In this document: one piece after another, positions 915 to 26,361 of the stretch
Layout: each line of letters starts with the position of its first letter
How positions within the stretch are numbered: the stretch's first letter is position 1
NCBI GenBank assembly: GCA_963675915.1
Contig: OY780959.1
Span: 1,020,001-1,052,000 of the forward strand
Direction: 5' to 3'
Source of the DNA: Coprobacillaceae bacterium
Lineage (GTDB): Bacteria > Bacillota_I > Bacilli_A > Erysipelotrichales > Coprobacillaceae
Length of the DNA stretch: 32,000 nt
Translations under genes and position numbers: made by a program
Notes under the pieces: generated by a model
Database searches by the model: none
Told to the model about the DNA's origin: nothing
What the model saw: the letters and a program-made list of their open reading frames with translations, nothing else

Positions 915-2486
915 ATGAAAAATACCGTTAATATCAAGAAAATGTCACGTGAGGAATTAGAAAAATCCTACATGGCTTTACATACAAAAGTAGAACAATT
1001 ATCTCAAGAGAACAGCTGGTACAAGGAACAGGTCAGACTGCAGCAGAAGAAATTGTTTGGTCAATCGTCTGAAAAAGTTCATGTTGATCAGTTGTCTTTG
1101 TTTGATGAGATTGAATTTGAATCAACACCGATCAATGATGAATCAAATATCACCGAAGTAAAATCTCATAAGCGCAAAAAGAAATCAAGAATTATGGATT
1201 TGGATTCCTTGAAGAACACTACGATTGATTATGTTTTGAGTGCTGATGAAAAGGTTTGTCCTAAATGCAATCATGAATTGCATGAGATGTCGAAAAAAGT
1301 TCGCAAAGAACTTATTTTCGTTCCTGCCAAAGTGGAAGTGATTAATCATGTCGAACACATCTACAGCTGCCGCAATTGCGAGAAGAACGACATCGAAGCA
1401 ACCATTATCAAAGCTAATGGACCAACGCCATTGATCAGCGGTAGCATTGCTTCAGCTTCACTGGTGGCAAATATCATCAATGACAAGTATGTCAAATCGT
1501 TGCCGTTATACCGTCAGGAAGTTTCCTATCAAAGAATGAGGATCAATCTGAATCGTCAGAACATGTCAAACTGGCTGATCAGGGTATCAAATAACTACTT
1601 CAAACCATTGATTGACTACATGTATAAACAGCTGATGAAGGCCCAGTATATCAATGCCGATGAGACCAGCGTCCAAGTGCTACATGAACCAGGTAAAGCG
1701 GCATCATCGAAATCATACATGTGGGTCTATATGACTGGCAGAAGCGAAGCCAATCAATACGTACTGTTTAACTACGAGCCAAGCCGCGCCCATAAGCACG
1801 CCGTTAATTACCTTGAAGATTTCAAAGGAGTTTTGATATCAGACGGTTACCAGGCATATGACAAAGTCGAAGGTGTAACTCAGGCAGGTTGTTGGGCTCA
1901 TGCTAGAAGGAAATTCAAAGAAGCTTTGGATCTGGTTCCTAAAAATGTCAATCTTGAGTCTACCGAGACATATAAATGTTTCGCAATGATCAACGAGCTG
2001 TTCGCCATAGAGAGAAAGCACAAAGATTGCGATTATGACAAACTGACCAAAATTCGGCAGGAAAAGTCATTGAAGAAAGTGAATGAATTCTTCAAAAAAA
2101 TCCATGAACTTAAAAAGGTTGCTCTACCTAAATCTCATTTAGGCGAAGCAATCAACTATGCTTACAATCAAGAATCAAAGTTGAGAACATATATTAGTGA
2201 TGGGAGAATAGATATCAGCAACAATGCAGCTGAAAACATCATCAGACCGTTCACTGTCGGCCGCAAGAATTGGCTGTTTATGAATACAGTTAAAGGTGCC
2301 AATAGCAGTTCCTACATTTACAGCTTGGTTGAGTCAGCCAAAATGAACAATCTCAAACCATATGATTATTTCCAGTATATCCTAGACCGTTTGCCGGATC
2401 TGGATATAACTGATGAAAAATCATTGGAAACAGTAATGCCGTGGGCAAAACTGCCAAAAGAACTGTATATCACTAAAAAATCATAG
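915..2486 (+). CDS. tnpC: IS66-family DDE transposase TnpC
   Basis: 523 aa with an N-terminal coiled coil, zinc finger CPKC...CRNC, NADETSVQVL and DGYQAY...AGCWAHARRKF catalytic-core motifs. Confidence 0.92.
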   Translation: MKNTVNIKKMSREELEKSYMALHTKVEQLSQENSWYKEQVRLQQKKLFGQSSEKVHVDQLSLFDEIEFESTPINDESNITEVKSHKRKKKSRIMDLDSLKNTTIDYVLSADEKVCPKCNHELHEMSKKVRKELIFVPAKVEVINHVEHIYSCRNCEKNDIEATIIKANGPTPLISGSIASASLVANIINDKYVKSLPLYRQEVSYQRMRINLNRQNMSNWLIRVSNNYFKPLIDYMYKQLMKAQYINADETSVQVLHEPGKAASSKSYMWVYMTGRSEANQYVLFNYEPSRAHKHAVNYLEDFKGVLISDGYQAYDKVEGVTQAGCWAHARRKFKEALDLVPKNVNLESTETYKCFAMINELFAIERKHKDCDYDKLTKIRQEKSLKKVNEFFKKIHELKKVALPKSHLGEAINYAYNQESKLRTYISDGRIDISNNAAENIIRPFTVGRKNWLFMNTVKGANSSSYIYSLVESAKMNNLKPYDYFQYILDRLPDLDITDEKSLETVMPWAKLPKELYITKKS

Positions 2487-5321: not shown

Positions 5322-6260
5322 CTATTCACCTTGTCTCAAATATTCTAACATCTCTACTATGGTAGCCTCAATAGAATATTCAGGGTGCCAGTTGATATTA
5401 TTCTTCAACTTTGTTATATCCGCTTCAATAACCGGGATATCTATCGGTCTTAACTTATCACGATCAACCGTAATAGTCACTTCCTCTTGTGCATGCTTTA
5501 GAATTGTATCTAAAATTTCATCAAGCGCGATTGCCCTTCCACTTCCTACATTATATATTTCACCGGCATGACCATTTTGAATCAAAAGAACATACGCTTT
5601 TACAATATCACGAATATCGGTGAAGTCACGCCTTGCAGTCAAATTACCAACCTTTATGATTGGATCTTGCACTCCCTTTTCAATATCGACAATTTGTTGA
5701 CAGAAGTTTGCAATTGCAAAAACCGATTCCTGACCCGGACCGATATAGTTAAATGTTCTGGCAGACATAATTTCTAAGCCATAGGCATCACAGTAAATGT
5801 TAGCCAATTTGCTTTGGAAAGCTTTAGTTGCTGCAAAAACGTTACCAGGACGAGTATTGCTCTCTTCGTTAATCGATAAATTGCTTTGTTCAATTTGACC
5901 ATATTCATCTCCAGTACCAACTAAGAGGACTCTTGGTTTATAATCCAGATCTTTTATTGCTTCAAGAACGTTTAATGTTCCTTTGATATTAATATCAACA
6001 GTTTGACTTGGATTTTCCCATGATTGTCCTACTGAAGATTGGCCGGCTAATTGGAAAATCCAGTCCGGTTTGAATTCAGCCAAAACGTTTATTACTTCAC
6101 CTTGATTTAATATATCAAAATTGATAACGTTACTCAATTCACTAGCATAATTAGTATCCTTACTTTTGGTGATAAGGACTTCCATACCACCAAGTTTCAA
6201 GAGTTCTTTTTCCAAAAAAGGTTCTACAAATCCCATTCCACCAAGTATTAGTGATTTCAT
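5322..6260 (-). CDS. Extended-SDR, GDP-6-deoxy-D-mannose reductase (Rmd)-like, with non-canonical catalytic and cofactor motifs
   Basis: 312 aa. LAGQSSVGQSW, VGTGDEYGQ, ARTFNYIGPGQ and VGNLTARRDFTDIRDIV align to Rmd-type GDP-4-keto-6-deoxymannose reductases. The YxxxK is FAATK, and GxxGxxG is GGMGFVE. Confidence 0.65.
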   Translation of the reverse strand: MKSLILGGMGFVEPFLEKELLKLGGMEVLITKSKDTNYASELSNVINFDILNQGEVINVLAEFKPDWIFQLAGQSSVGQSWENPSQTVDINIKGTLNVLEAIKDLDYKPRVLLVGTGDEYGQIEQSNLSINEESNTRPGNVFAATKAFQSKLANIYCDAYGLEIMSARTFNYIGPGQESVFAIANFCQQIVDIEKGVQDPIIKVGNLTARRDFTDIRDIVKAYVLLIQNGHAGEIYNVGSGRAIALDEILDTILKHAQEEVTITVDRDKLRPIDIPVIEADITKLKNNINWHPEYSIEATIVEMLEYLRQGE

Positions 6261-7757: not shown

Positions 7758-8888
<1,131 letters not shown>

Positions 8889-8927: not shown

Positions 8928-11618
8928 TTAAATATCTGCATTGACCATCAATTTCACCAGGTCTTCGAACGAAACATCTCGTTTCCATCCCAGGGTCTTG
9001 GTTGCTTTGGTGTTGTCGCCACGAAGTTCTTTGATACTTGATGGCCGGAAATATTTCGAATCAATACCGACCAGCAGTTTTCCGGTCTGTTTGTCATAAC
9101 CTTTTTCATCAATACCCTTGTCGCGCCACTCGATTTCGATTCCCACTGTCTTGAAGGCCAGTTCCACGAACTCGCGGACACTGTGGGATTCATTGGTTGA
9201 AAGGACATAGTCACCCGGAATTGCTTCCTGGAGCATCAGCCACATTCCTGCCACATAATCCCCGGCAAAGCCCCAGTCTCTTTTGGAATCCAGGTCCCCC
9301 AGAGTCAGCTTGTCCTGACGGCCGTTATAGATGTCGGCTACCGCTTTGGTGATTTTACGGGTCACATATTTGCTGTCGCGTCGTGGTGATTCATGATTGA
9401 ACATGATTCCATTGCAGGCGAAGATATTATATGACTTGCGGTACATCACCGTAGTCCAATAGGCATTAAGTTTCGAAATTCCGTATGGTGAATTCGGCGC
9501 GAAAGCTGTCGTTTCACTTTGAGGTACGGTTTCCAGATTGTCACCATACATGACACATGATGAAGCTTGGAAATATTTGGCATTCAGTTTCGATTTTTGG
9601 ATTGCATCGAGAATCCGGATCGCCCCCAATGAGTTGACATCATTGGTGTATTCGGGAATCTCGTAAGAAGTCGAAACGAACGACTGTGAAGCCAGGTTGT
9701 AAACTTCATCCGGCTTTATCTGTTCAATCAGACGGTTGACATTGGTTCCATCCGTCAGATCCCCGTAATGAAGATAGAACGATTTGTTTTCGATGCCTTC
9801 CAGGATTTCCCCTTCAAGATCATTGTCGTTGTTCGAGAAACGACGCATCATCCCATGGACTTCATAGCCCTTGTTAAGCAAGAAGCGTGAAAGATAGAAA
9901 CCATCCTGACCGCTCACTCCGGTGATGAAGGCTACTTTCTTTTCTTCCTTGGTTTCAATGATGCTCATCAGCTCGGCTTCAAGCTGTTTTTGTTTATTGT
10001 CGGCTTCATATTTGGTTGCCCCGATGACACAATAGTAGAACTTGCATTTCGGCTCGGTTCCACTCGGTCTTACCGCAAACCACGATCCGTCTTCAAGATA
10101 ATATTTCAAGACGTTTGATTTGGGCAGGATTTTATATGAATGACGGACGAAGACATTTTCGTTGGCGAAGTCTTCGACTTTGACCACTTTGTATCCGGCA
10201 ATCCGGTTAAGCCGCTGCTTGCGCAGGTTGTTGACCACAATTCCGGCATTTTTCAGTTTCTTCGACTTGTTGACATCGATATAGTAACCGTATTTTTCAT
10301 AGATATCATGCAAGGCATCGACCAGGTCTTTGCCTTGGGATGCATAATAGTTGGCCACTTCGGCTAAAACCATACAAGACTGCACGGCATCCTTGTCTTT
10401 TGAGATTCCACTAAACAGGTAACCATATGATTCCTCGTATCCGAAGACAAAGTCGAACTCATTAGTTCTTTCATATTCGCAGATCAACTCCCCGATGAAT
10501 TTGAATCCAGTCAGGGTGGTCTGGTTTTTTATGCCATAATTTTGGGCGATCACTTTCCCCAAACTGCTGGTAACGACCGTATCGAAAATGATGGTGTCAT
10601 TAGTCAGTCTACATTGTTTTTCCAAGGTCCCCAAAATGTACTCAAGCAGGATTGCTCCAGTCTGATTTCCGGTCAGAAAAACAAATTCACCTTCATGCTC
10701 CACCGCGATTCCCAACCGGTCACAGTCAGGATCGGTGGCAATCACATACTTGGCATTGTTCTTTTTAGCCTGCGCGATTCCCATATCGAAAGCATGGATG
10801 TTTTCCGGATTCGGATTGGGCGTGTTGACAAACTCGGTTGATGGGAAACATTGTTCCTCGACGATTTCATAATTGACTCCGCGACGGTCGAACATGGTCG
10901 TTACCGGCACGAATGAAGTCCCATGTTGAGATGAGAAAACAATCTTGGTTGCCTGATAATCGACCTCATTGTATTTGACCTTGTCAAGCAGTTGATAGTA
11001 CTTGTTGTCGATCTCTTCACCGATATACTCGATGTATTGGAGTTCTTTTTCCTTTGAGGCCATTTCAACATCAAAACCATCTTCAACCATTGTGATGTAT
11101 TCATAAATCCGGTTGGTTTCATGGACCACACATTGGTTTCCATAATGGTTGTAGACCTTGAATCCGTTATATTCCTTGGTATTGTGGCTGGCAGTGATGA
11201 CCACTCCCGCAAAAGCCTCTAACTCCTGAATCGCAAATGACAATTCCGGAGTCGGTCGCAAATCATCGAACAGGTAGACCTTGATTTCATGATTGGCCAA
11301 CACCGATGCCACGATTTTCGCGAATTCCTTAGAATGACGGCGGTTGTCATAGGCGATAACCGCTGATTTGTTATGATCGCCGACATAGGCATTGATATAG
11401 TTAGCCAGACCTTCAGCCAGTTTTCTGATGGTGAAGACATTCAGCTTCGATGGTCCCACTCCCATGATTTCGCGGACTCCACCGGTACCGAATTTCAATT
11501 TGGATCCGAAGATCTCCTTGATTTCGATCTCGCTTAAAGATTCGATTTTTGCTTTCAATTCATCTGTCAAAGGAGCTTTGAGCCACTTTTCGTATACGTC
11601 CATGTATTCCAAAATCAC
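8928..11618 (-). CDS. Fusion protein: phosphomannomutase/phosphoglucomutase (aa 1-559) :: GDP-mannose-4,6-dehydratase-like SDR (aa 560-896)
   Basis: A single 896-codon ORF. The N-terminal part carries TASHNTKEYNGFKV, DPDCDRLG, GYEESYGY and RPSGTEPKCKFY. The C-terminal part (8931..9941) starts KKVAFITGVSGQDGFYLSRFLLNKGYEVHGMMRR and aligns over its whole length to Gmd. The GTG start at 11618 has SD AGAGGT and overlaps the upstream stop (GTGA). Confidence 0.85.
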   Translation of the reverse strand: MILEYMDVYEKWLKAPLTDELKAKIESLSEIEIKEIFGSKLKFGTGGVREIMGVGPSKLNVFTIRKLAEGLANYINAYVGDHNKSAVIAYDNRRHSKEFAKIVASVLANHEIKVYLFDDLRPTPELSFAIQELEAFAGVVITASHNTKEYNGFKVYNHYGNQCVVHETNRIYEYITMVEDGFDVEMASKEKELQYIEYIGEEIDNKYYQLLDKVKYNEVDYQATKIVFSSQHGTSFVPVTTMFDRRGVNYEIVEEQCFPSTEFVNTPNPNPENIHAFDMGIAQAKKNNAKYVIATDPDCDRLGIAVEHEGEFVFLTGNQTGAILLEYILGTLEKQCRLTNDTIIFDTVVTSSLGKVIAQNYGIKNQTTLTGFKFIGELICEYERTNEFDFVFGYEESYGYLFSGISKDKDAVQSCMVLAEVANYYASQGKDLVDALHDIYEKYGYYIDVNKSKKLKNAGIVVNNLRKQRLNRIAGYKVVKVEDFANENVFVRHSYKILPKSNVLKYYLEDGSWFAVRPSGTEPKCKFYYCVIGATKYEADNKQKQLEAELMSIIETKEEKKVAFITGVSGQDGFYLSRFLLNKGYEVHGMMRRFSNNDNDLEGEILEGIENKSFYLHYGDLTDGTNVNRLIEQIKPDEVYNLASQSFVSTSYEIPEYTNDVNSLGAIRILDAIQKSKLNAKYFQASSCVMYGDNLETVPQSETTAFAPNSPYGISKLNAYWTTVMYRKSYNIFACNGIMFNHESPRRDSKYVTRKITKAVADIYNGRQDKLTLGDLDSKRDWGFAGDYVAGMWLMLQEAIPGDYVLSTNESHSVREFVELAFKTVGIEIEWRDKGIDEKGYDKQTGKLLVGIDSKYFRPSSIKELRGDNTKATKTLGWKRDVSFEDLVKLMVNADI

Positions 11619-12769
11619 TTACCTCTACTTATATTTAATTTGGTGTGATGCAAAATTATCAGTTTAGATATAACATAAATATAACGTGTAGTAAAATCTA
11701 TAATATGCCTAATGACTAGTGATAATGGTGTAAGTAAAACAAAAACCCATACCAAGATTATTATGTCAATTTTTGGCCAGTATGCAATAAACTGAACTAT
11801 CGGTCCACTTACAAAGAAAATTGCATGTAAGAACCAATATTCAGTAGAAAATTTCCCTAAAAAAACTGACAACCTAACAATTATAATAGGTTTATATATA
11901 TTTTTAAAACACCATATTAATAAAACGACAATTGGGGCCTATATGTAGTCAAGGTTAAAATTATAAACCGACTTGAAGATACCTCTACAAGCAAAAACAC
12001 ATAAAAAAATAGTTAATCCCACTGGAATAAATAAAATCTTTCTTTTTATAAAATAATCATGAGTTGGCCGCATAATACTTACAATTAAATCATATTTTGT
12101 TAAAATATAACCGCTTAATACGATTGGTAGAAATTCTAAATATTCCGACAAATAAGATGTAAATATTCCAGAACTAAATTGAATTATCAGAAATCTAAGC
12201 ATAAAAACAACGACCGTAAGAATAAACAATTCAAATAATGCTATTTGTGTCTTGAATACTGAATTCAATTTATCAGCCAAAATATGTGAAAGTGCACCAA
12301 TGATATAATCAATTAGCGGAAAAGTAAATACTATTTGCAAGTAAAAACGAAGATACCATGCGACCGGAATATAATCAGTTCTCAACACGAAAAAATTAAG
12401 TACAAAGTCTCTAATATCAAAATACAAAGTATTAGTTAAATACATGATTGGAATGTAAATAAAAATCAGAACAAACCAATATGTTGACATTAAAGGGATT
12501 AATCGTTTTAATGAATGTTTGTAAGCATTTCTCGTTTTAACCGAATACATGTAAAACATTGCTATACCAGTTAAAAATGCAAAAACAGCAACACAAATCT
12601 TTGAAAAGCCACCAAAATATGAAGAAATGGTTCTCATTCCAATTGAAAGACCAAAATATTTATTTTGATCGTATATCCATTCTGGCATTCCATAAACATG
12701 ATTGCTTACTAACATAATTATCGTAAGGCCTTTTATAAAAAGTGTATCATTCTTTGTAAAACTAACCAT
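11615..12769 (-). pseudogene. Acyltransferase family 3 gene interrupted by a single in-frame TAG
   Basis: ORFs 11939..12769 and 11615..11872 are in the same frame. Every codon between them is sense except TAG at 11939..11941. The joined product is 384 aa, with IKGLTIIMLVSNH at the N-terminus and a typical hydrophobic C-terminus. Confidence 0.8.
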
Positions 12770-12864: not shown

Positions 12865-13908
12865 TTATCTATTTCTTAACTCATGGACCTGAGCCAATTG
12901 TTCTCTTGTTCCCACTACGATCATATCTTCAGCCTCGATGAAGAAGGCATTTTCCATTCCCAAAAAGACGATTTCTTTTTTGGTCGAGAAAATGATATTG
13001 TTCTTGGCATTGTCGACGTAGAACTTCCCTTTGGTGATATTGCCGTTTTCATCTTTAGGCAGATATCTTTCCAAGGCTGCCCAGGTTCCCACATCATCCC
13101 AACCGAATGATCCTGGGATCACGTTGATGGTGTTGATTTTTTCCATGATGGCATAATCGATTGAAATCGATTCGCAGTTTGGATAAATGTCAAACAAACG
13201 GTCTTTGAACCCGGCTGATGATACTGATCCGATTTCGCTTAATTTTGCATAAGTGTCCGCCATATGGAGTTGAGCCAGTTTTTCAACATAGTTGACATTC
13301 CACATGAAGATTCCGGCATTCCAGAAATAACCACCTTCTTCAAGGTACTCTTTGGCCGTATCCAAATCAGGCTTTTCGACAAAACGTTCAACCTGTTTGA
13401 TTGAATAACCGCTGACTTCAGTCTGGTTGGCAGTCTGTTTGATGTAACCATATCCGGTTTCCGGACGGGTTGGTTCGATTCCGATTGTCACAACCGATTC
13501 TTGATGCTCATTAAGGAAAGCATCCCCGGCTTTGAGAACGTTGCAGAACTCTTCGACATCCTGAATCAAAGCATCAGAAGGAAGAACCACCGAGTTCCCA
13601 CCAGGGAACTTGGCATTGACCTGTATCGCCCCAAATACCACACAAGGCGCCGTATTGCGGCCAACTGGTTCTACCAGAATATTTTCCTCAGGCAAGTCCG
13701 GCAGTTGTTCTTTGGTAAGATTGACATATTTGTCACCGGTAGCGATGAAAATCTGTTCAATCGGCATTATTTTCAAAAGACGGTCAACCGTCATCTGGAT
13801 CATTGTTTTTTCGCCAATCAGATTCAAAAACTGTTTGGGATGTTCATCGGTCGACAAAGGAAAGAAACGAGTTCCTCTTCCACCGGCCATAATTAAAGCG
13901 CTTAACAT
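12865..13908 (-). CDS. manC: Mannose-1-phosphate guanylyltransferase (short form, no PMI domain)
   Basis: LIMAGGRGTRFFPLS nucleotidyltransferase loop, GRNTAPC, VLPSDALI, ERFVEKPD. 347 aa. SD AGAGGAGA. Confidence 0.9.
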   Translation of the reverse strand: MLSALIMAGGRGTRFFPLSTDEHPKQFLNLIGEKTMIQMTVDRLLKIMPIEQIFIATGDKYVNLTKEQLPDLPEENILVEPVGRNTAPCVVFGAIQVNAKFPGGNSVVLPSDALIQDVEEFCNVLKAGDAFLNEHQESVVTIGIEPTRPETGYGYIKQTANQTEVSGYSIKQVERFVEKPDLDTAKEYLEEGGYFWNAGIFMWNVNYVEKLAQLHMADTYAKLSEIGSVSSAGFKDRLFDIYPNCESISIDYAIMEKINTINVIPGSFGWDDVGTWAALERYLPKDENGNITKGKFYVDNAKNNIIFSTKKEIVFLGMENAFFIEAEDMIVVGTREQLAQVHELRNR

Positions 13909-13926: not shown

Positions 13927-14415
13927 TTATAAATAATCTTCTGACATATTTATTTCATTTAAGAACTTTGCATTCTTATCTTTATCAGATATGATTATGC
14001 TTATCAAATCAATATGCCAATCCATACCTATTTCAAGATCCTCTTCAAGCGACACATATCCATGTGCAAAACCACGAGGTATATACATGATTTTCTTATT
14101 CTCAAAAGATAAAATTTCTCCATGCCACTGCTTGTATGTGGAACTGTCTGGATTAACATCTAACGCAATAGAATACAAACCATCTGCCAAATATGATATC
14201 ATTTTTGCCTGAGCATATATACCTTCTTGATAATGTAAACCTCTTAAAGTATTAATTTTTTTGCTGTAGCCCTGATTAATTTGTCTAATCTCAAATTCAA
14301 CAGCCAAATCCCTTAGAACTCAATTATCAAATGGAATCGATAGACATCCTCTATAATCTTCTATAATGTCAGGAATATAAATTTTAACCTTAGTATTGCT
14401 TGGTTTTATATGCAT
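13927..14415 (-). pseudogene. RmlC-like cupin (sugar-nucleotide 3,5-epimerase family) with an in-frame TGA
   Basis: ATG at 14415 (SD GGAG) gives 31 codons (MHIKPSNTKVKIYIPDIIEDYRGCLSIPFDN). TGA follows at 14320..14322, then the same frame continues through LRGLHYQ...QAKMI...YIPRGFAHGY...ISDKD. Confidence 0.75.
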
Positions 14416-14590: not shown

Positions 14591-15532
14591 TTATCTTTCA
14601 GCTCTCACTTTACTGTTCAAGAAATCTTGATATGCTAGTCTAACACCCTCTTCAAGGTCGACTTTATGTTCCCATCCAAGATCTCTACTTTTAGAAACAT
14701 CTAGCAATTTGCGCGGTGTTCCATTTGGTTTTGCAGTATCCCATTTAATCTCACCTTCAAAACCTGTTACTCTAGAAACTAAGTCAGTTAATTGCTTAAT
14801 CGATAATTCTCTACCAGTTCCAGCATTAACAGTTTCATTTCCACTATAGTTATCCATTAGGAATATACAAAAATCTGCTAAGTCATCAACATATAAGAAC
14901 TCACGAAGAGCCGAACCATCACCCCAACATATTACTTCATCCAGTCCATTCTTTTTTGCCTCATGAAAACGGCGAATTAATGCCGGTAATACATGACTAT
15001 GAGTTGGATGATAGTTGTCATTCGGACCATATAAATTTGTAGGCATAACACTTATAAAATCTGTTCCGTATTGACGGTTCAAATATTCGCAATACTTTAA
15101 TCCGCTGATTTTCGCCAATGCATAAGCTTCATTAGTTTTCTCAAGTTCACTTGTCAGCAGATACTCTTCTTTCATTGGTTGTGGTGCCATTCTAGGATAA
15201 ATGCATGAAGAACCCAAAAATAGCAATTTTTTACACCCATGTCTCCAAGCAGCATTTATCACATTCATTTGCATCATCATATTCTCGTACATAAAATCAG
15301 CCAATGATTGAGAATTAGCCATTATCCCACCTACTTTTGCTGCCGCTAAAAAAACATATTCTGGTTTTTCTTTTTCAAAAAAATCTTCAACTAAATCTTG
15401 ACGAATCAAATCCAATTCTTTGCTTGTTCTAGTTATTATATTAGTATACCCTTGTTTTAATAATTCTCTACAAATGGCGCTACCAACCATCCCTCGATGA
15501 CCTGCAACATAAATTTTTGAATCTTTTTTCAT
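14591..15532 (-). CDS. fcl: GDP-L-fucose synthase (GDP-4-keto-6-deoxy-D-mannose 3,5-epimerase/4-reductase)
   Basis: IYVAGHRGMVGSAI, LAAAKVGGI, LFLGSSCIYP, YALAKISG, NLYGPNDN. 313 aa. SD AGGGGGA. Confidence 0.92.
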   Translation of the reverse strand: MKKDSKIYVAGHRGMVGSAICRELLKQGYTNIITRTSKELDLIRQDLVEDFFEKEKPEYVFLAAAKVGGIMANSQSLADFMYENMMMQMNVINAAWRHGCKKLLFLGSSCIYPRMAPQPMKEEYLLTSELEKTNEAYALAKISGLKYCEYLNRQYGTDFISVMPTNLYGPNDNYHPTHSHVLPALIRRFHEAKKNGLDEVICWGDGSALREFLYVDDLADFCIFLMDNYSGNETVNAGTGRELSIKQLTDLVSRVTGFEGEIKWDTAKPNGTPRKLLDVSKSRDLGWEHKVDLEEGVRLAYQDFLNSKVRAER

Positions 15533-15686: not shown

Positions 15687-17045
15687 GATAGTATAAAATA
15701 TTTTGTGTAAATTGAATTTCAGCTTTTAAGTAGCAAAAATGGTATAACCCCTGTAAAATTAGTTCTGCGAAAACAATCTACGGAAGGATTATACCCATGA
15801 ACTATTTTACATCATCTCTACTTAGAAGTCTAATCTCAAATGACAATAATTTGGAAGCTTTTGAACAAGTCGTTTCAGAACTTTTCAGAAGCGAACTTGA
15901 AAAAGCTATTAATGATATTCTTAAATCTGAACTGACCGTATTTCTTGATTACGAAAAATATGACAGATCAGAAAATTCCAACTCTAGAAACGGATTCTAT
16001 GAGCGTGATTACAACACCAAGTATGGTGTGTTGAATCTCAAGATTCCCCGTGATCGACACGGTGAATTTAATTCGCCTTTGGTACCGAAATATCAACGTA
16101 ACGATCTCGCTACTACTAACACAGTAATTGATTTGTTCAATACTGGAATGACCAATAGTGACATCGTCAAAACTGTTGAATCTATCTACGGGAAACAGTA
16201 TTCAAAACAGACAGTATCAAATATTACCAAAGAAGTGATCACCCATATCGACGCTTTCAAGAAACGCCCTTTAAACAAGCAATATGCGGTAATTTATACT
16301 GATGCTACGGTTATTCCATTACGTCGTGATACAGTGGCTAAAGAAGCTATTCACATTGCCATTGGGATTACTTTGGAAGGAACAAAAGAAATATTGGGAT
16401 ACTCAATCGCTCCTACAGAATCTGCCACCATATGGCAAGAGTTGCTTGAAGATTTCAAGCAACGAGGAATAGAAGAAGTCGCCTTGTTTTGTACTGATGG
16501 GCTTTCTGGTGTGGAAGCAGTCATTGAAGACACTTTCCCAATGGCAAGGATCCAACGTTGCATCGTGCACGTTTCTCGGAACATAGTTTCCAAAGTAAGA
16601 GTTAAAGATCGAAGCGAAATTGCTAAAGATTTTAAAGTTGTTTATAACTCTAATGATGCTGAAACAGCCCAATCAGAATTGGAATCCTTTATTGACAAAT
16701 GGGGAAAGAAATATCCTCGGGTAGCAAAATCATTAGAAAACAATTCCAATTTATTCACTTTTTATCTGTATCCGGCATCTGTTAGAAGAAGTATCTATAC
16801 AACCAATTTGATTGAAGGGTACAATAAACAACTGAAACGGAAAATCAAAACCAAAGAACAATTTCCTAATGAACAGGCGGCCGAGAAATATATAGTTTCT
16901 CAATTTGAACAGTATAACCAAAAGTTCATGAGCCGCGTTCACAAAGGATTCAAAGGCATCACTTACGAAGAGTGGTTCCTGTTAGAAAAGTAAATCATTG
17001 ATGAGAACTAATTTTACAAATCTACACAAAAATATTGACGCTACC
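15687..17045 (+). mobile_element. IS256-family insertion sequence (1359 bp)
   Basis: Imperfect 26-bp IRs: GATAGTATAAAATATTTTGTGTAAAT versus the reverse complement GGTAGCGTCAATATTTTTGTGTAGAT. Perfect 8-bp TSD TGAATTAA at 15679..15686 and 17046..17053. Confidence 0.88.
15797..16993 (+). CDS. IS256-family (mutator-type) transposase
   Basis: 398 aa with RNGFYERDYNTKYGVLNLKIPRDRHGEF, IYTDAT, FCTDGLSG, QRCIVH, TTNLIEGYNKQLKR. Confidence 0.93.
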   Translation: MNYFTSSLLRSLISNDNNLEAFEQVVSELFRSELEKAINDILKSELTVFLDYEKYDRSENSNSRNGFYERDYNTKYGVLNLKIPRDRHGEFNSPLVPKYQRNDLATTNTVIDLFNTGMTNSDIVKTVESIYGKQYSKQTVSNITKEVITHIDAFKKRPLNKQYAVIYTDATVIPLRRDTVAKEAIHIAIGITLEGTKEILGYSIAPTESATIWQELLEDFKQRGIEEVALFCTDGLSGVEAVIEDTFPMARIQRCIVHVSRNIVSKVRVKDRSEIAKDFKVVYNSNDAETAQSELESFIDKWGKKYPRVAKSLENNSNLFTFYLYPASVRRSIYTTNLIEGYNKQLKRKIKTKEQFPNEQAAEKYIVSQFEQYNQKFMSRVHKGFKGITYEEWFLLEK

Positions 17046-17419: not shown

Positions 17420-18481
17420 TTATTGATTTGGATTTAGAAATACTTCATTTGGCAATGTCCAATTCCTGATATTTCTACCATTCCATCTTTCGGGATGGGC
17501 TGATTTTGCAGCTTCATAAACTTTACGACGATTATCCATGACTAACTCGCCTTCACCATTATGACGTTGAGCAGGTGTGAGAAAATTGATTCCGCTGTGA
17601 TGATGTTCATATCGATACCAGTTAACGAAGTTGGCGCACCACAAACGCGCATCATCAAGGCTTCGGAATCCTTTGGGTTGATAATTTGGTCTGAACTTTA
17701 ATGTCTTGAACAGACTCTCGGCATACGGGTTGTTATTGCTGACTCTTGGCCTGCTATTTGATGGCGTGATGCCGAGTTGATATAGCGTCGCAAGCATCGT
17801 AGCTCCCTTCATCGGACTCCCATTATCCGAGTGTAATACAAGCGGATCAGTTGATAATACACGTTGTGACAGTGCAGTTCGTCTGATGAGTTCGCTGGCA
17901 TGTTCAGCTGATTCTTCTTCCCATACTTCCCAACCAACAATATCACGGCTGTACAAGTCTGATATCAGGTAAAGATAGTAGAATTTTCCCTTGATTGGGC
18001 CGTTGAGATAAGTAATATCCCACATCCATATTTGATTGGGCGCAACCGCCACATGAGTAGAAATTGGCCGCTTCTTCGGTTCTTCACTACGTCCTCGATG
18101 GTTTTGCATCTTTTGTTCTTTCAACACTCTGTAAAACGTTGATTCTGAAGCAAGATATTTGCCTTGGTCGGCTAGAGCGGGAACTATCTCACAAGGAGGC
18201 ATACTGGCGAATTTAGGCTTATTTACTGTATCAATGATTTCATTACGTTCATCTGTTGTAAGCTTGTTGGCTGGATCCGGTCTCTTGGCTGTCGGTCGTA
18301 AATCTTCGATGGTACCAATGTTTTTCAACTGCTTCATCCAGCGGTAATACGTACGTTCCGTAATCCCTAATTCTTTGCAGGCATTGAAGAGTTTGGCACC
18401 ACTTTCCACAGCAGCTTCGATTAGTGCAATGGCTTTAATGCGATCTGAGGTACTAATCATTCGTCCTCGGGATCCCCCCAA
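17420..18481 (-). CDS. IS3-family OrfB (DDE integrase-like), expressed by -1 frameshift from OrfA
   Basis: HTH followed by WMWDITYL, HSDNGSPM, NNPYAESLFKTLK (DDE). It overlaps orfA in the -1 frame. Confidence 0.88.
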   Translation of the reverse strand: MGGSRGRMISTSDRIKAIALIEAAVESGAKLFNACKELGITERTYYRWMKQLKNIGTIEDLRPTAKRPDPANKLTTDERNEIIDTVNKPKFASMPPCEIVPALADQGKYLASESTFYRVLKEQKMQNHRGRSEEPKKRPISTHVAVAPNQIWMWDITYLNGPIKGKFYYLYLISDLYSRDIVGWEVWEEESAEHASELIRRTALSQRVLSTDPLVLHSDNGSPMKGATMLATLYQLGITPSNSRPRVSNNNPYAESLFKTLKFRPNYQPKGFRSLDDARLWCANFVNWYRYEHHHSGINFLTPAQRHNGEGELVMDNRRKVYEAAKSAHPERWNGRNIRNWTLPNEVFLNPNQ

Positions 18482-18951
18482 ATCGCATTTGCCTTTTTTC
18501 TTAAAACTAGAAGTGCAGCAGTTTCGGCCAGAGCTTTTTCCTTTCTAGTGAGTTCCTTCTCTAATCGTTTGTTTTCTTTTTCAGTAACTTTGAGTTCTTT
18601 GTTTAAGCGTGCAGCTTCTTGAGCAACACCACCATTGGCGTTCATGCAAGCGTCTTTCCAGGCTAGAATTTGCTCAACGTAGAGACCTTTTTTACGCGCA
18701 TACTCAGCTAGTTCAGTTTCATTCATGCTTGAAGTTTCAACAACTATTAGAAATTTATCCTGGGTACTCCATTTATCTGAAACAGCATCATTTCCAGGAG
18801 CAGCAACACCTCCAGCACGAGCTTTATTTCTCCAATTTCGAAGGGTCTGTTCAGAGATGCCTTCTTCTTTTGAAATCTCACTGATTGCTTCATTGTTGGG
18901 AGGAAGCATCCTCCGGGTTAGTGAATCTTTGAATTCTTTACTATATTTCAT
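18457..18951 (-). CDS. IS3-family OrfA (HTH + leucine zipper)
   Basis: MKYSKEFKDSLTRRMLPPNNEAISEISKEEGISEQTLRNWRNK... plus a coiled coil. ATG at 18951. Its SD has been displaced 1.5 kb away by the IS110 insertion. Confidence 0.85.
   Translation of the reverse strand: MKYSKEFKDSLTRRMLPPNNEAISEISKEEGISEQTLRNWRNKARAGGVAAPGNDAVSDKWSTQDKFLIVVETSSMNETELAEYARKKGLYVEQILAWKDACMNANGGVAQEAARLNKELKVTEKENKRLEKELTRKEKALAETAALLVLRKKANAIWGDPEDE
18493..18499 (-). promoter_or_regulatory. Programmed -1 frameshift heptamer A AAA AAG
   Basis: The orfA frame reads AGA AAA AAG GCA and orfB is open in the -1 frame. This is the classical IS3-family slippery site. Confidence 0.75.
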
Positions 18952-18961
18952 GTTATCAGCT

Positions 18962-19228
18962 TGTATGATTAACTTGTACACAAAATAGATACAAGTATCA
19001 TACTTTTCCTTTCATAATTATTCTTGATATTTTATGATGAAATAGACATGAGTACATTTTAATGTATACTGTAGCGTGACTACTTCCTGGAGAGTAAATC
19101 CATCGGTCTATTTTATCTTTAATTAGTTGGATAAGTCTTTGAACTTTTATTTCTAGCAAGTGTATGAGAATAGGTCGCCGATGGTTTCTATCTTGTGTCA
19201 AAACATTTTAGAAAGGCGGTCTTTTTTC
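18962..19228 (+). ncRNA. Candidate IS110 bridge (seeker) RNA region in the non-coding left end
   Basis: Established for IS110/IS621-type elements: a structured guide RNA is encoded 5' of the recombinase. Here 267 nt are non-coding. There is a long-range stem CCATCGG (19100..19106) with CCGATGG (19178..19184), and a local hairpin around 19052..19070. The exact RNA ends are unknown. Confidence 0.45.
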
Positions 19229-20395
19229 ATGGCAAAAAAACTTGTAGGCATTGATATTGCCAAAAACTTACATTTCGCCTCGATTGTCGATTCAAACGGT
19301 GAGGTTTTTGAAAAAGCTTTTCCTTTTGAAAACAACAAGGCAGGTTTCGAACTTCTTATGTCTAAAGTCAATGACTTTGACAAAGAAAACATCGTATTTG
19401 GAATGGAGTCAACAGCTCACTATTCCAATAATTTAAGTAATTTTTTATTGATCAACGGATTTCGGGTCGTTATCATCAACCCTTTGCAGACCCACGCTCT
19501 TAGAAAAACCCAAATGCGTGATGCCAAGAATGATAAAATCGATTCTATGCTTATCTGTATGGCTCTCACCTTGAATCTTGGTAATGAAATATCTTTGAAC
19601 GATACTCTGAATGAATTGTATGATCTATGCAAATCATACCATGATGTTACAAAATTGAATGCAAGAGCAAAAATTCAAATGATTACTTATCTTGATCAAA
19701 ATTTCCCTGAATATCACAAAGAATTTGGCAAAAGCACTTTTGGAAAAGCATCTTTTGCATTGCTCAAAGAATATCCGACTCCTGAGAAAATAAATAAAGT
19801 TCGAATTGACAAGCTGACTAACATTCTTCACAACAATTCACGCGGCCGGTATGGCCGAGAAAAAGCGCTTAGACTCAAACAACTAGCGCAAAACTCTGTT
19901 GGCATACAGAGAGATTCCTTGGCTGTAAGAATGCAGTTAACTATTCTTCAAATCGAACTTTACGATAATCAGAAGAAGGAACTCAAGGACCAGATACGTT
20001 GTATAGTGGAATCTCTTGATTCACCTATCATGACAATCCCTGGCATGGGATATGTACAGGCGGGAATGATTCTTTCTTCTATTAAAGATATTAACTTATT
20101 TTCTCATCCAAGTAAAGTACTGGCATATGCCGGTTTGGATCCAAGAGTTAGACAATCAGGGAAATTCAATGCCTCATCGACAAGAATGTCCAAGCGCGGA
20201 AATTCAATGCTTAGATATGCTCTAATATGGGCTGCGAACAATGTTCAAAAAAATGCCAAAACATTTAATCTGTATTACACGAAAAAAATTAACGAAGGTA
20301 AAAGCCACTATAACGCACTGGGTCATACAGCCAATAAATTGGTAAGGGTAATCTACAAACTATTAACAACCAATCAAGAATACCAAAATATTTAA
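19229..20395 (+). CDS. IS110-family DEDD recombinase/transposase
   Basis: MAKKLVGIDIAKNLHF, FGMESTAHY, INPLQT, DKIDS (RuvC-like DEDD) plus the C-terminal IPGMGYVQAGMILS...RMSKRGNSMLRYAL domain. The start is moved to 19229 from the ORF-track 19160. Confidence 0.9.
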   Translation: MAKKLVGIDIAKNLHFASIVDSNGEVFEKAFPFENNKAGFELLMSKVNDFDKENIVFGMESTAHYSNNLSNFLLINGFRVVIINPLQTHALRKTQMRDAKNDKIDSMLICMALTLNLGNEISLNDTLNELYDLCKSYHDVTKLNARAKIQMITYLDQNFPEYHKEFGKSTFGKASFALLKEYPTPEKINKVRIDKLTNILHNNSRGRYGREKALRLKQLAQNSVGIQRDSLAVRMQLTILQIELYDNQKKELKDQIRCIVESLDSPIMTIPGMGYVQAGMILSSIKDINLFSHPSKVLAYAGLDPRVRQSGKFNASSTRMSKRGNSMLRYALIWAANNVQKNAKTFNLYYTKKINEGKSHYNALGHTANKLVRVIYKLLTTNQEYQNI

Positions 20396-21868: not shown

Positions 21869-22177
21869 TTAGACGATTATCCCTGACTCGTTTAATTTGT
21901 AGATGGCTTGTGATATGGCTTCGCTGCTGATTGGATCTATCTCGCGCAATAGAGCTGACTTGTTCCAAAATTTGTCTTTGAAATATGATAGTTCCAGTCC
22001 CAGCTTCATCAACGGGATGCAAATCCAGTTTCCTTTGGCTGATTTACCTACTATCACTTCGATTTCATTGCCGTCATATCTTAGCTGGAATTCACACTTA
22101 TCTGGGTTTTGCGAGACTATTACTATCTCGTTGGCCCATGTTTTTTCATCATAGTTGCAGAAGTATTCGATTATCAA
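21869..22177 (-). CDS. Transposon ORF4, 102-aa protein of unknown function
   Basis: Conserved between the copies (1 aa difference). The TTG start overlaps the ATPase stop (TTGA), with GAGGT 7 nt upstream. I recognise no motif. Confidence 0.6.
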   Translation of the reverse strand: MIIEYFCNYDEKTWANEIVIVSQNPDKCEFQLRYDGNEIEVIVGKSAKGNWICIPLMKLGLELSYFKDKFWNKSALLREIDPISSEAISQAIYKLNESGIIV

Positions 22178-24224: not shown

Positions 24225-24272
24225 ATAATACCTCCGTCACCCACTATATACTAATAGAATCGATTATTTAAC

Positions 24273-24827
24273 TCATCCTATGTGGTTGATGGTATACAGG
24301 ATATTTATGGTATTTCTACATTGCATGAACTGCATCAAATAATTTGAAAAACAACTTTCAACAAGTTGGTTAATATCATTTGATTCAATTCTCAACGACA
24401 TCAAACGTTGCTGCCAAACATTGATATACCTGCTCACAACATTATAAATTTCACACTCAGACATATAGGGATTTCGATCAAGAATGGCTTTTAATAGTTT
24501 CTGATTATTTTTATGTATGGAAATCTCAACTTGAACAGCCAACGGGATACTTGAATATGGAACCAAACATGAAAGAAGAATTGCGTGGGTTCTGCCACAA
24601 TCCTTACATCTTAGCCGCATTATTCTCAAATTAAAAAAGCCAAAAGGCAGTTTCACCCTTCGGTTATAATAACCATGAATTATGAAATTGCCCTGGCAGT
24701 CACCAGCGCAACTCAAGGAAAAACGATTGATATTGGAAACCAATTCATTATAATAGGCCTGGAGTTTGGCCCGCGAATCAATCTTCATCAATTTATTATT
24801 GATTTTTACTCCGTGATACGTTATCAT
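24273..24827 (-). CDS. Transposon ORF1, 184-aa Cys4 zinc-ribbon protein (resembles what I recall as DUF6431; unverified)
   Basis: CxxxC...HGYYNRRVKLPFGFF.LRIMRLRCKDCGRTHAILLSCLVPYSS. The start is set at the MITYH shared with copy 2; the ORF-track extension to 24941 covers the upstream hairpin. Confidence 0.65.
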   Translation of the reverse strand: MITYHGVKINNKLMKIDSRAKLQAYYNELVSNINRFSLSCAGDCQGNFIIHGYYNRRVKLPFGFFNLRIMRLRCKDCGRTHAILLSCLVPYSSIPLAVQVEISIHKNNQKLLKAILDRNPYMSECEIYNVVSRYINVWQQRLMSLRIESNDINQLVESCFSNYLMQFMQCRNTINILYTINHIG

Positions 24828-26313: not shown

Positions 26314-26361
26314 GTTAAATAATCGATTCTATTAGTATATAGTGGGTGACGGAGGTATTAT

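What the first reader, a model, noticed from the sequence alone, without database searches (positions are those of the whole stretch)
9552..9563. The fused dehydratase-like domain has Val where Gmd enzymes have the catalytic glutamate
The motif reads QASSCVMYG. The stand-alone paralogue in this window has QAATSEMFG, and E. coli Gmd has QASTSELYG, with Thr133 and Glu135 catalytic (Glu is the acid/base of the dehydration step). Codon 9552..9554 (GTC) replaces that Glu, and the preceding Ser is Cys. The SDR Tyr/Lys (SPYGISKLNAYW), GVSGQDG cofactor loop, NHESPRR and RDWGFAGDYV are retained. Cofactor binding and C4 redox chemistry therefore look intact, while the dehydration machinery is altered. 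This suggests a diverged function (C4 oxidase, epimerase/reductase or non-catalytic partner) rather than a redundant Gmd. From memory, Campylobacter heptose modification uses a GMD-like SDR (Cj1427) that only oxidises C4. I cannot verify that it has an equivalent substitution.
Basis: partly seen in the sequence, partly recalled or inferred. Interest (0 to 1): 0.65.

Follow-up and report, generated by a model that had tools for sequence, protein, structure and literature searches.

The report
Mutase fused to glutamate-less Gmd domain
A sugar-phosphate mutase gene in a gut Firmicute is fused to a copy of GDP-mannose dehydratase that has specifically lost the glutamate needed for dehydration yet is strongly conserved, so it probably does something other than its database name says.

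Summary
[quoted passage not shown] Its motif is FQASSCVMYG, with Val (GTC, 9554..9552) aligned without gaps to human Glu157 and Cys to Ser156.

- **Specific loss.** Of 45 columns at least 93% conserved in 128 diverse GMDs, the domain keeps 43. Only Glu157 and a Phe-to-Tyr change differ.
- **Conserved.** All 16 database members carry the same motif. dN/dS is about 0.06, the same as the mutase half.
- **Not tied to Gmd.** The ManC plus fusion pair occurs with or without an adjacent canonical Gmd. Rmd and Fcl occur only where the canonical Gmd does.
- **A parallel family.** At least 120 clusters of phosphomannose isomerase fused to a GMD-like domain (Acholeplasmatales-type MAGs) also lack the Glu. 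This loss appears independent.

The domain is therefore functional but very unlikely to be an ordinary dehydratase, although NCBIfam scores and names it as one. Its real role is unresolved. I favour GDP-hexose C4 redox or epimerase-type chemistry without dehydration (about 0.4). A non-catalytic GDP-sugar sensor or scaffold is next (about 0.3), then an alternative-base dehydratase (about 0.15). It is a new variant of a known kind.

The parts
8928..11618 (-). 896-aa fusion ORF: phospho-sugar mutase (ManB/PgcA type) joined directly to a GMD-like SDR domain (GMD*)
   Evidence: ORF list. Pfam PGM_PMM_I-IV at aa 41-529 and GDP_Man_Dehyd at aa 564-891, E 6e-123. Continuous 892-896 aa orthologues in 16 database entries and six loci.
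10032..11498 (-). Mutase half (aa 41-529), apparently intact
   Evidence: Pfam domains I-IV. Regex matches TASHN, D.D.DR and R.SGTEP are present in 15 of the 16 family members; the exception is a 93-aa fragment. Closest stand-alone relatives are 533-567 aa phospho-sugar mutases at 44-51% identity.
8946..9929 (-). GMD* domain (aa 564-891): GMD fold, passes the NCBIfam gmd equivalog cut-off
   Evidence: TIGR01472 465 bits against a cut-off of 415. AF2 model pLDDT 86.8, pTM 0.88. Foldseek TM 0.86-0.90 to human, Aquifex, Naegleria and E. coli GMD. phmmer E 1.7e-109 to human GMD.
9552..9563 (-). Ser686-Ser687-Cys688-Val689, in place of the GMD fingerprint Ser-[Thr/Ser]-Ser-Glu (human 154-157)
   Evidence: The Cys and Val are fixed in all family members.
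9471..9485 (-). Catalytic dyad Tyr712...Lys716 (YGISK), retained
   Evidence: Sequence. Aligned to human Y179/K183, which are 99-100% conserved in GMDs.
9900..9920 (-). GVSGQDG Rossmann loop (aa 567-573), retained. The MRRFS motif, the Arg pair at the start of the RR loop, lies downstream.
   Evidence: The role of the RR loop is described in PMC3584063.
9375..9398 (-). NHESPRRD (aa 741-748): substrate loop retained, but the usual Gly after RR is Asp
   Evidence: Gly in 311 and Asp in 2 of 337 Glu-bearing GMDs. Asp is fixed in GMD* and present in 58% of the PMI-fused clade. Its significance is unproven (control).
9036..9038 (-). Ser861 in RPSS, aligned to the GDP-contacting Glu of RPxE (human E328, P. 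aeruginosa Glu282)
   Evidence: The list of GDP contacts is in review PMC9415975.
7758..8852 (-). Canonical stand-alone Gmd (QAATSEMFG); the real start is probably Met22 at 8789
   Evidence: Pfam and TIGR01472 478 bits. 93% identical to the 343-aa Gmd beside the fusion in L167. 50% identical to GMD*.
5322..6260 (-). Rmd (GDP-4-keto-6-deoxy-D-mannose reductase)
   Evidence: phmmer E 8e-69 to 2pk3.
12865..13908 (-). ManC-type mannose-1-phosphate guanylyltransferase, always immediately upstream of the fusion
   Evidence: Pfam NTP_transferase. Same neighbour in L001, L003, L167 and L168.
14591..15532 (-). GDP-L-fucose synthase (Fcl), with GSSCIYP motif
   Evidence: phmmer E 1.8e-109 to 8du0 and 3e-105 to E. 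coli 1bsv.

Best explanation
The C-terminal 340 residues of this ManB-type mutase are a GMD-derived extended SDR. The domain still binds NADP(H) and a GDP-hexose and keeps the Ser-Tyr-Lys hydride-transfer machinery. It has lost the single extra residue (Glu) that GMDs use to eliminate water across C5/C6, and the neighbouring Ser is Cys. Shown: the domain is functional (under selection), intact, fails the GMD dehydration fingerprint, and is not tied to a canonical Gmd. Inferred: it acts on GDP-mannose made by the fused mutase plus the adjacent ManC, and carries out only C4 hydride chemistry. That would be GalE-like transient oxidation and re-reduction, for example 4-epimerisation, or oxidation with Cys-assisted proton exchange, without 4,6-dehydration. 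This would give a polysaccharide precursor other than GDP-4-keto-6-deoxymannose. My confidence that it is a functional domain and not an ordinary 4,6-dehydratase is about 0.8. The figure below is for the specific redox-only or epimerase-type mechanism.
For: Loss of the base is specific: 43 of 45 columns at least 93% conserved across 128 diverse GMDs are kept, including the Gly loop, S/T155, Y179, K183, NHES, R214, K222, R247-D-W-G and R325. Only E157 (to V) and F218 (to Y) differ. Purifying selection on the GMD* half (dN/dS 0.056-0.069) equals that on the mutase half (0.056-0.066), with dS of 0.7 to above 1.4. The motif is identical in all 16 family members. The fold is confidently GMD. Published fingerprints: GMD is [ST]SE with Glu as acid and, via water, base; GalE-type 4-epimerases have [ST]...YxxxK with no acid or base; TunA uses Cys at the +1 position as an acid (PMC8987622). 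Glu abstracts the C5 proton (PMC3584063). A precedent for the same switch exists: UDP-GlcA 4-epimerase has Ser where the decarboxylases have the catalytic Glu (PMC7984243). Context: where Rmd or Fcl occur (window, L167) a canonical Gmd is present too; where gmd is absent (L001, L002, L003, L168) no consumer of the 4-keto-6-deoxy sugar is present. In the much older PMI-fused Glu-less clade, Tyr is kept in 115/120, Lys in 120/120 and S/T in 119/120 despite identities down to 42%. This argues that hydride chemistry is still selected in such domains.
Against: There is no biochemical evidence, and no GDP-mannose 4-epimerase or C4-only GDP-mannose oxidoreductase of this lineage is known to me. I had no model coordinates, so the positions of Cys688 and Asp748 relative to C5/C6 are unknown. 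Retention of conserved residues could reflect ligand binding alone. The family spans only about 83% identity, so conservation within it is weakly informative. The guanine-contacting Glu (RPxE) is Ser here. Five of 120 PMI-fused relatives have Phe for the catalytic Tyr. SQD1 ([ST]MG) shows that an SDR lacking both canonical acid/base residues can still form a 4-keto-5,6-ene. Only 10 kb on each side of the orthologues was visible, so a gmd elsewhere in those genomes is not excluded.
Confidence: 0.4

Rival explanations
1. Non-catalytic pseudo-enzyme. The GMD* domain only binds GDP-mannose (or GDP-Fuc/GDP-Rha) and NADP(H). It serves as a feedback sensor or an oligomerisation/scaffold module for the fused early-pathway enzyme.
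For: Two apparently independent fusions put a Glu-less GMD-like domain on an enzyme upstream of ManC (ManB here, PMI in at least 120 clusters) and not on ManC or a downstream enzyme. By contrast, the Glu-bearing GMD fusions seen are with the next pathway step, an aminotransferase. GDP-contact residues are kept much better than the former acid/base positions, which vary in the PMI clade (P/C/S/A at 156; Y/Q/L/H at 157). Gln at 157 mimics the E157Q mutant crystallised with GDP-Man bound (6gpk). Five of 120 have Phe for Tyr, the RR motif is lost, and the middle Gly is kept in only 57% of the PMI clade. No enzyme that would consume a 4-keto product is present in loci lacking gmd.
Against: In GMD* every cofactor and triad residue is intact. 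Tyr, Lys and S/T are nearly invariant across the deep PMI clade. Recurrent Cys at position 156 (fixed in GMD*, 24% of the PMI clade, 0 of 128 canonical) suggests chemistry more than binding. No SDR-derived sensor of this kind came up in the searches I ran.
Confidence: 0.3
2. Still a 4,6- (or 5,6-) dehydratase that uses a different acid/base set: Cys688 as acid (as in TunA) with water, Tyr or Asp748 as base. It may also be bifunctional with 4-reduction to GDP-D-rhamnose.
For: TunA uses T-C-E with Cys as acid, CDP-glucose and PglF dehydratases use other pairs, and SQD1 has [ST]MG (PMC8987622). Asp at the NHESPRR-G position is very rare in Glu-bearing GMDs (2/337), but it is fixed here, is the majority state in the PMI clade, and is present in another Glu-less GMD, P0389. 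PBCV-1 GMD is reported to be bifunctional, also reducing the product to GDP-rhamnose (PMC9415975). The loci lacking gmd resemble Wzm/Wzt plus GT4 homopolymer clusters.
Against: No residue able to abstract H5 occupies position 157. A canonical Gmd sits immediately downstream in two lineages and would be redundant. Rmd and Fcl co-occur only with the canonical Gmd. The apparent Asp covariation is not supported by a global control: the number of columns shared with the PMI clade is within the range of ordinary GMDs.
Confidence: 0.15
3. A 4-ketoreductase or epimerase acting on the product of the canonical Gmd (Rmd- or Tld-like), that is, a catalytic partner of Gmd.
For: PBCV-1 GMD is reported to reduce its own product to GDP-rhamnose (PMC9415975). 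The window and L167 have Gmd directly downstream.
Against: Four orthologous loci have no gmd within 10 kb. The window already encodes a dedicated Rmd and an Fcl. The Gmd(-Rmd) module looks like a recently exchanged accessory: Gmd is 93% identical between lineages against 83% for the fusion.
Confidence: 0.08
4. A decaying, functionless domain, or an assembly or frameshift artefact.
For: The window is rich in insertion sequences and carries truncated neighbours: RmlC, and acyltransferase ORFs that look fragmentary.
Against: dN/dS is about 0.06. The ORF is intact in 16 entries from independent assemblies, including two complete chromosomes. 43 of 45 universal residues are kept.
Confidence: 0.02

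Closest known systems
[quoted passage not shown]
   Same: 51% (human) to 58-61% (clostridial) identity, with no gaps around the motif. Same fold (TM 0.86-0.90). Same NADP loop, RR motif, S/T-Y-K triad, NHESPRR, FVTRK-like and RDWG motifs. Scores above the equivalog cut-off.
   Different: Lacks the defining Glu (Val) and has Cys for the preceding Ser. Ser replaces the GDP-contacting Glu of RPxE, and Asp replaces Gly after NHESPRR. It is fused to a mutase and coexists with a canonical Gmd.
PMI(type I)-GMD-like fusion proteins of Acholeplasmatales/Anaeroplasmataceae-type MAGs (uncharacterised; NCBI name 'GDP-mannose 4,6-dehydratase', e.g. MCR5349805.1)
   Same: A GMD-family domain at the C-terminus of an early GDP-mannose-pathway enzyme. 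Glu is absent in 120/120. Cys at position 156 in 24%, and one member has S-C-L. Tyr/Lys and GDP contacts are kept. They lie in polysaccharide loci beside ManC and GT4 genes, with no gmd/rmd/fcl.
   Different: A separate, older clade: 45% identity to GMD*, monophyletic in the NJ tree, and more eroded (RR lost, middle Gly variable, NHES variable). The partner is PMI, not ManB.
UDP-glucuronic acid 4-epimerase versus UDP-xylose synthase/ArnA (T-S-S versus T-S-E)
   Same: In one SDR scaffold, a non-acidic residue at the +2 position goes with epimerase chemistry and Glu with the decarboxylases, and both start with C4 oxidation (PMC7984243).
   Different: Different nucleotide and sugar. This is an analogy only, and no homology-based transfer of function is possible.
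TunA UDP-GlcNAc 5,6-dehydratase (T-C-E)
   Same: Cys immediately after the triad Ser/Thr, where it is assigned as catalytic acid (PMC8987622 Table 1).
   Different: TunA keeps the Glu base; GMD* has Val. No specific sequence relationship was seen.
[quoted passage not shown]
   Same: An SDR that oxidises only C4 of a GDP-sugar (PMC10680097).
   Different: No entry identifiable as Cj1427 is among the 60 PDB sequence hits shown or the top 50 Foldseek hits. It uses alpha-ketoglutarate to recycle its cofactor. Whether it has an equivalent active-site substitution is unverified.

Membership tests
GDP-mannose 4,6-dehydratase (EC 4.2.1.47) | Family HMM score above the curated cut-off (TIGR01472 equivalog; PF16363) | tested here: met
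   465 bits against a cut-off of 415; PF16363 E 6e-123.
GDP-mannose 4,6-dehydratase (EC 4.2.1.47) | Extended-SDR GMD fold | tested here: met
   AF2 pLDDT 86.8; Foldseek TM 0.86-0.90 to 6gpl, 2z95, 5uzh and 1db3.
GDP-mannose 4,6-dehydratase (EC 4.2.1.47) | GxxGxxG loop plus the RR motif, and the S/T...YxxxK triad | tested here: met
   GVSGQDG, MRRFS, Ser687, Tyr712, Lys716.
GDP-mannose 4,6-dehydratase (EC 4.2.1.47) | [ST]-S-E fingerprint: Glu as acid and, via water, base of the 5,6-elimination | tested here: not met
   S-C-V. Glu is present in 97-100% of the GMD sets examined. Fingerprint from PMC8987622 and PMC3584063.
GDP-mannose 4,6-dehydratase (EC 4.2.1.47) | GDP-contact residues (P. aeruginosa Asn179, Val190, Lys193, Arg218, Arg279, Glu282) | tested here: inconclusive
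   Five of six are kept; Glu282 is replaced by Ser (RPSS/RPTS).
GDP-mannose 4,6-dehydratase (EC 4.2.1.47) | Conversion of GDP-mannose to GDP-4-keto-6-deoxymannose | not testable with these tools
   Needs an enzyme assay.
GalE-type NDP-hexose 4-epimerases (fingerprint only) | [ST]...YxxxK with no extra acid/base residue at +1/+2 | tested here: inconclusive
   No acidic or basic residue at +1/+2, but Cys at +1 could be catalytic. Sequence similarity to GalE is only 20-23%.
GalE-type NDP-hexose 4-epimerases (fingerprint only) | Epimerase activity with tightly bound cofactor | not testable with these tools
   Needs an assay.
Cj1427-type GDP-heptose C4-dehydrogenase | Specific sequence or structural relationship to Cj1427 | tested here: not met
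   No entry identifiable as Cj1427 among the 60 PDB sequence hits shown or the top 50 Foldseek hits, which are GMD, Rmd, DdahA and GalE types.
Rmd / GDP-4-keto-6-deoxymannose reductase | Specific similarity to Rmd (2pk3, 6x3b) | tested here: not met
   26% and 20% identity, against about 50% to GMDs. The window has its own Rmd.
TunA-type 5,6-dehydratase | T-C-E fingerprint (Cys acid plus Glu base) | tested here: not met
   Cys is present and Glu is absent.
alpha-D-phosphohexomutase (N-terminal half) | Four PGM_PMM domains with the TASHN, DxDxDR and RxSGTEP motifs | tested here: met

The most novel reading that the evidence does not exclude
Glu-less GMD-like domains fused to early GDP-mannose-pathway enzymes (ManB here; PMI in a large Acholeplasmatales-type family) are a recurrent, unrecognised functional class. 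They would be either a new GDP-hexose activity, such as GDP-mannose 4-epimerase or a C4-only oxidoreductase that makes a rare sugar in one step, or the first SDR-derived end-product sensor built into PMI/PMM. At present all are annotated as ordinary GDP-mannose 4,6-dehydratase.
Probability: 0.55. Interest if true: 0.75.

Novelty: new variant of a known kind. Interest (0 to 1): 0.55.

Why it matters
If the domain is not a dehydratase, a whole set of database entries is misnamed. [quoted passage not shown] Pathway reconstructions for gut Erysipelotrichaceae, Coprobacillaceae and Acholeplasmatales would then wrongly predict GDP-fucose or GDP-rhamnose capacity. Two independent fusions of a Glu-less GMD scaffold to PMI or PMM point either to an undescribed one-step GDP-mannose modification feeding surface polysaccharides, or to a new way of regulating entry into the GDP-mannose pathway. 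Either possibility can be tested directly with a recombinant protein, and the natural E-to-V/Q/Y variants complement the engineered E157Q and S156D mutants of human GMD.

Tried and rejected
**Accelerated divergence of GMD\*.** I first counted 34-37 deviations at columns conserved in the 120 closest (clostridial) GMDs. A control showed that the window's own canonical Gmd (39) and human GMD (27) deviate just as much. I dropped that claim and used a diverse panel instead.

**Convergent substitutions with the PMI-fused clade (A110S, G215D).** The total number of such columns (5) lies inside the distribution for ordinary GMDs, which has mean 3.4 and maximum 10. Only the Glu loss is treated as meaningful. 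Asp748 is recorded as unexplained.

**Common origin of GMD\* and the PMI-fused clade.** I rejected this on identities (59% to clostridial GMDs against 45% to the PMI clade) and NJ topology. NJ on saturated distances is not robust.

**Single-sequence AlphaFold.** The model was useless (pLDDT 35) and I repeated it with an alignment. The tools return no coordinates, so I could not measure distances from Cys688 or Asp748 to the substrate.

**Metagenome scan for further GMD\*-type genes.** It found only canonical GMDs at 55% identity or less.

**Papers not held.** The Cj1427 structure and mechanism papers, King 2009 and Webb 2004 were unavailable. One 'Glu157' hit concerned GDP-mannose dehydrogenase, a different enzyme.

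**Literature searches.** Searches for a natural ManB-GMD or PMI-GMD fusion found nothing relevant.

**Codon-level test at the Cys and Val codons.** TGT and GTC are identical in all lineages, so there is no extra evidence beyond the amino-acid level.
Full report
**1. The observation**

The finding lies in a minus-strand ORF, window 8928..11618, of 896 aa.

Pfam splits the protein into four PGM_PMM domains (aa 41-529) and a full-length GDP_Man_Dehyd domain (aa 564-891, E 6e-123). The two halves are joined almost end to start: "...LMSIIETKEE" is followed directly by "KKVAFITG".

phmmer against PDB sequences aligns FQASSCVMYG without gaps to human GMD YQASTSELYG (E 1.7e-109). The Glu of that motif is residue 157 in my numbering. 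This matches the PDB entries named "E157Q" (6gpk) and "S156D" (6q94).

**2. Is it real and selected?**

Searching 5.8 billion proteins with the whole protein found only two clusters with the fusion architecture (97% and 83% identity). These clusters hold 16 sequences. All carry FQASSCVMYG and 15 carry NHESPRRD and intact mutase motifs; the remaining one is a 93-aa fragment. NCBI names them "GDP-mannose 4,6-dehydratase [Erysipelotrichaceae bacterium]".

Species-representative genomes with the fusion are an Erysipelotrichaceae MAG and a complete Coprobacillaceae chromosome.

Nei-Gojobori estimates for the two halves:

| Region | dN/dS | Source |
|---|---|---|
| GMD-like half (GMD*) | 0.056-0.069 | |
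| Mutase half | 0.056-0.066 | |

dS was about 0.7 for the L001/L003 pair and above 1.4 for window against the others. Neighbouring codons carry synonymous differences, while the amino-acid motif does not change. Glu to Val (GTC) needs two base changes. The domain is therefore neither an artefact nor decaying.

**3. How specific is the change?**

Glu at position 157 in the GMD sets examined:

| Set | Glu present | Source |
|---|---|---|
| 120 closest stand-alone GMDs (58-61% identity, mostly Clostridium) | all (S-T-S-E) | |
| Motif matches in 80 metagenome GMD loci | all 85 | |
| 150 representatives of 50%-identity clusters | absent in five aligned sequences; three more are partial here | |

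My first count, 34-37 deviations from clostridial-conserved columns, did not survive a control. The window's canonical Gmd and human GMD deviate as much.

On a diverse panel of 128 canonical GMDs, 45 columns are at least 93% conserved. GMD* keeps 43 of them: G30, G33, G36, Y179, K183, N208-H-E-S, R214, K222, R247-D-W-G, R325 and others. It differs only at E157 (Val) and F218 (Tyr).

- Thr-to-Ser at the triad position is common in true GMDs.
- Cys at position 156 is found in 0 of 128 canonical sequences.
- The Glu of RPxE, listed among the GDP contacts of P. aeruginosa GMD (Glu282; PMC9415975), is Ser.
- The Gly after NHESPRR is Asp.

An AlphaFold model built with an alignment is confident (pLDDT 86.8, pTM 0.88). 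Its best structural matches are human, Aquifex, Naegleria and E. coli GMD (TM 0.86-0.90).

**4. What the missing residue does**

A JBC review tabulates the fingerprints of nucleotide-sugar SDRs (PMC8987622):

| Enzyme | Fingerprint | Assigned acid/base |
|---|---|---|
| GalE 4-epimerase | [ST]...YxxxK | none |
| dTDP-glucose dehydratase | [ST]DE | Asp acid, Glu base |
| CDP-glucose dehydratase | [ST]DK | Asp acid, Lys base |
| GMD | [ST]SE | Glu acid; water plus Glu base |
| TunA | TCE | Cys acid, Glu base |
| SQD1 | [ST]MG | unknown |

[quoted passage not shown] S-C-V therefore fails the defining GMD fingerprint.

A precedent for the functional meaning of this position comes from UDP-GlcA 4-epimerase. 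It carries Ser where the related decarboxylases carry the catalytic Glu (PMC7984243).

Even so, the domain scores 465 bits against the NCBIfam gmd equivalog (cut-off 415). This explains its public name.

**5. Genomic context**

In the window the order on the minus strand is:

- Fcl (14591..15532; E 1.8e-109 to GDP-L-fucose synthase)
- a truncated RmlC
- ManC
- what look like acyltransferase fragments
- ManB-GMD*
- canonical Gmd
- an acyltransferase
- Rmd (E 8e-69 to 2pk3)
- an acyltransferase
- IS66

The remainder of the window is largely insertion sequences.

In L001, L002, L003 and L168 the conserved pair ManC plus ManB-GMD* sits between RmlA-C-B-D and GT2, Bac_transf, GT4, GT4, Wzm, Wzt and several more GT4 genes. 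No gmd, rmd or fcl lies within 10 kb.

L167 carries a fusion 92% identical to that of L003. It again has a canonical Gmd (93% identical to the window's) and an Rmd fragment directly downstream.

Three points follow:

- The ManC plus fusion pair is the stable core of the locus.
- The Gmd(-Rmd) module is an exchangeable accessory. Gmd is more similar between lineages than the fusion is (93% against 83%).
- Consumers of GDP-4-keto-6-deoxymannose follow the canonical Gmd, not GMD*.

This argues against GMD* being a working dehydratase, an obligate Gmd partner, or an Rmd-like reductase. Only 10 kb on each side was visible, so this is not conclusive.

**6. A parallel family**

Among the 50%-identity representatives, P0244 (640 aa) is a type I phosphomannose isomerase fused to a GMD-like domain with T-C-Q. 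Searching with it returned at least 120 clusters of the same architecture at 52-83% identity. They come from Acholeplasmatales/Anaeroplasmataceae-type MAGs and are also named "GDP-mannose 4,6-dehydratase".

None of the 120 has Glu at position 157.

| Position (human numbering) | State in the PMI-fused clade | Source |
|---|---|---|
| 157 | Tyr 70, Gln 42, Leu 5, His 3 | |
| 156 | Pro 57, Cys 29, Ser 17, Ala 12 | |
| Y179 | kept in 115/120 (5 Phe) | |
| K183 | 120/120 | |
| N208 | 94% | |
| K222, R247, R325 | 99-100% | |
| RR motif | lost | |
| Middle Rossmann Gly (G33) | 57% | |

Their loci are polysaccharide clusters. ManC is nearby in three of four examined, GT4 genes are present, and there is no gmd, rmd or fcl. 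One locus also holds GDP-heptose pathway genes.

By identity, GMD* is 59% to clostridial GMDs and 45% to the PMI clade. In an NJ tree GMD* nests among canonical GMDs on a long stem, and the PMI clade is separately monophyletic. The two Glu losses therefore appear independent.

Asp at the NHESPRR-G position is rare in Glu-bearing GMDs (2/337). It is fixed in GMD*, is the majority state in the PMI clade, and occurs in a third Glu-less GMD, P0389. A global control shows that GMD* shares no more rare states with the PMI clade than ordinary GMDs do. I therefore leave this unexplained.

**7. Mechanism**

*Shown:* the domain is an intact, selected GMD-fold domain. Its cofactor, GDP and triad residues are kept, its dehydration residue is removed, it is coupled to ManB and ManC, and it is not tied to Gmd.

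*Inferred, best guess (0.4):* it binds GDP-mannose and performs C4 hydride chemistry without 5,6-elimination. This would be an epimerase-like or oxidoreductase reaction, possibly using Cys688 as a proton shuttle, and would supply a modified GDP-hexose to the GT4 enzymes.

*Rivals:*

- A non-catalytic GDP-sugar sensor or scaffold regulating the mutase (0.3). It is favoured by the choice of upstream fusion partners and by the variable 156/157 residues in the PMI clade.
- A dehydratase with an alternative acid/base set, Cys688 with or without Asp748 (0.15). TunA and SQD1 show this is not impossible.
- A reductase working on the product of Gmd (0.08).
- An artefact or decaying domain (0.02).

**8. 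Comparison and novelty**

The domain is a member of the GMD sequence family, but it fails the catalytic membership test. It is not close to Cj1427. That enzyme is a C4-dehydrogenase of GDP-manno-heptose (PMC10680097), but no entry identifiable as Cj1427 appears among the PDB hits listed.

I found no paper describing ManB-GMD or PMI-GMD fusions or Glu-less GMDs. I rate the finding a new variant of a known kind, of moderate interest, and directly testable.

Noticed in passing
P0244, P0391-P0509; loci L162-L166: A large uncharacterised family (at least 120 clusters at 90% identity) of type I phosphomannose isomerase fused to a GMD-like domain, in Acholeplasmatales/Anaeroplasmataceae-type MAGs. 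None has the catalytic Glu (Tyr or Gln instead). Tyr/Lys and GDP contacts are kept, while the RR motif is lost. [quoted passage not shown]
   Followed up: partly
window 9375..9377 (Asp748 in NHESPRRD): Asp replaces the near-invariant Gly after NHESPRR. Asp occurs in 2 of 337 Glu-bearing GMDs, but it is fixed in GMD*, present in 58% of the PMI-fused clade, and present in the Glu-less stand-alone P0389. It may be a relocated acid or a coincidence; a global control does not support general convergence.
   Followed up: partly
window 7758..8852 versus L167 12778..13809: The canonical Gmd is 93% identical between the window and L167, whereas the adjacent fusion (83%) and ManC (82%) are much more diverged. 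This suggests recent exchange of the Gmd(-Rmd) module between lineages. The Rmd in L167 is truncated to 208 aa.
   Followed up: partly
window 21869..24698 and 25888..28717: Two 2830-nt copies of an element encoding an rve integrase and an AAA_22 ATPase (IS21-like by my reading), 97% identical and in inverted orientation. They flank two DUF6431 genes.
   Followed up: partly
window 915..2486, 15797..16993, 17420..18981, 19160..20395, 29164..30719: The window is unusually dense in transposase genes: IS66 family, Mutator family, IS110/IS116 family, and two HTH_Tnp_1 plus rve integrase pairs that look IS3-like. They surround and probably rearrange the sugar-nucleotide gene block. No glycosyltransferase or Wzm/Wzt domain was found among the window ORFs I annotated, unlike the orthologous loci.
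   Followed up: no
window 13927..14307: A truncated dTDP-4-dehydrorhamnose 3,5-epimerase (126 aa, profile positions 37-125 of 168). It is probably a remnant of the RmlA-C-B-D block that lies upstream of ManC in L003 and L168.
   Followed up: partly
window 11615..11872 and 11939..12769: An Acyl_transf_3 ORF that covers only part of the profile (276 aa), followed by an 85-aa hydrophobic ORF, between ManC and the fusion. It looks like a disrupted acyltransferase inserted into the otherwise adjacent ManC-fusion pair.
   Followed up: no
window 14591..15532: A GDP-L-fucose synthase (GSSCIYP motif). With Gmd and Rmd present, the window encodes routes to both GDP-L-fucose and GDP-D-rhamnose, in addition to the fusion.
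   Followed up: yes
P0254, P0314, P0362, P0389: Four further GMD-family cluster representatives lack the Glu (T-S-A, S-A-L, S-S-N, S-G-R). P0254 has an unassigned C-terminal extension of about 270 aa. Loss of the Glu is sporadic but recurrent in the family.
   Followed up: no
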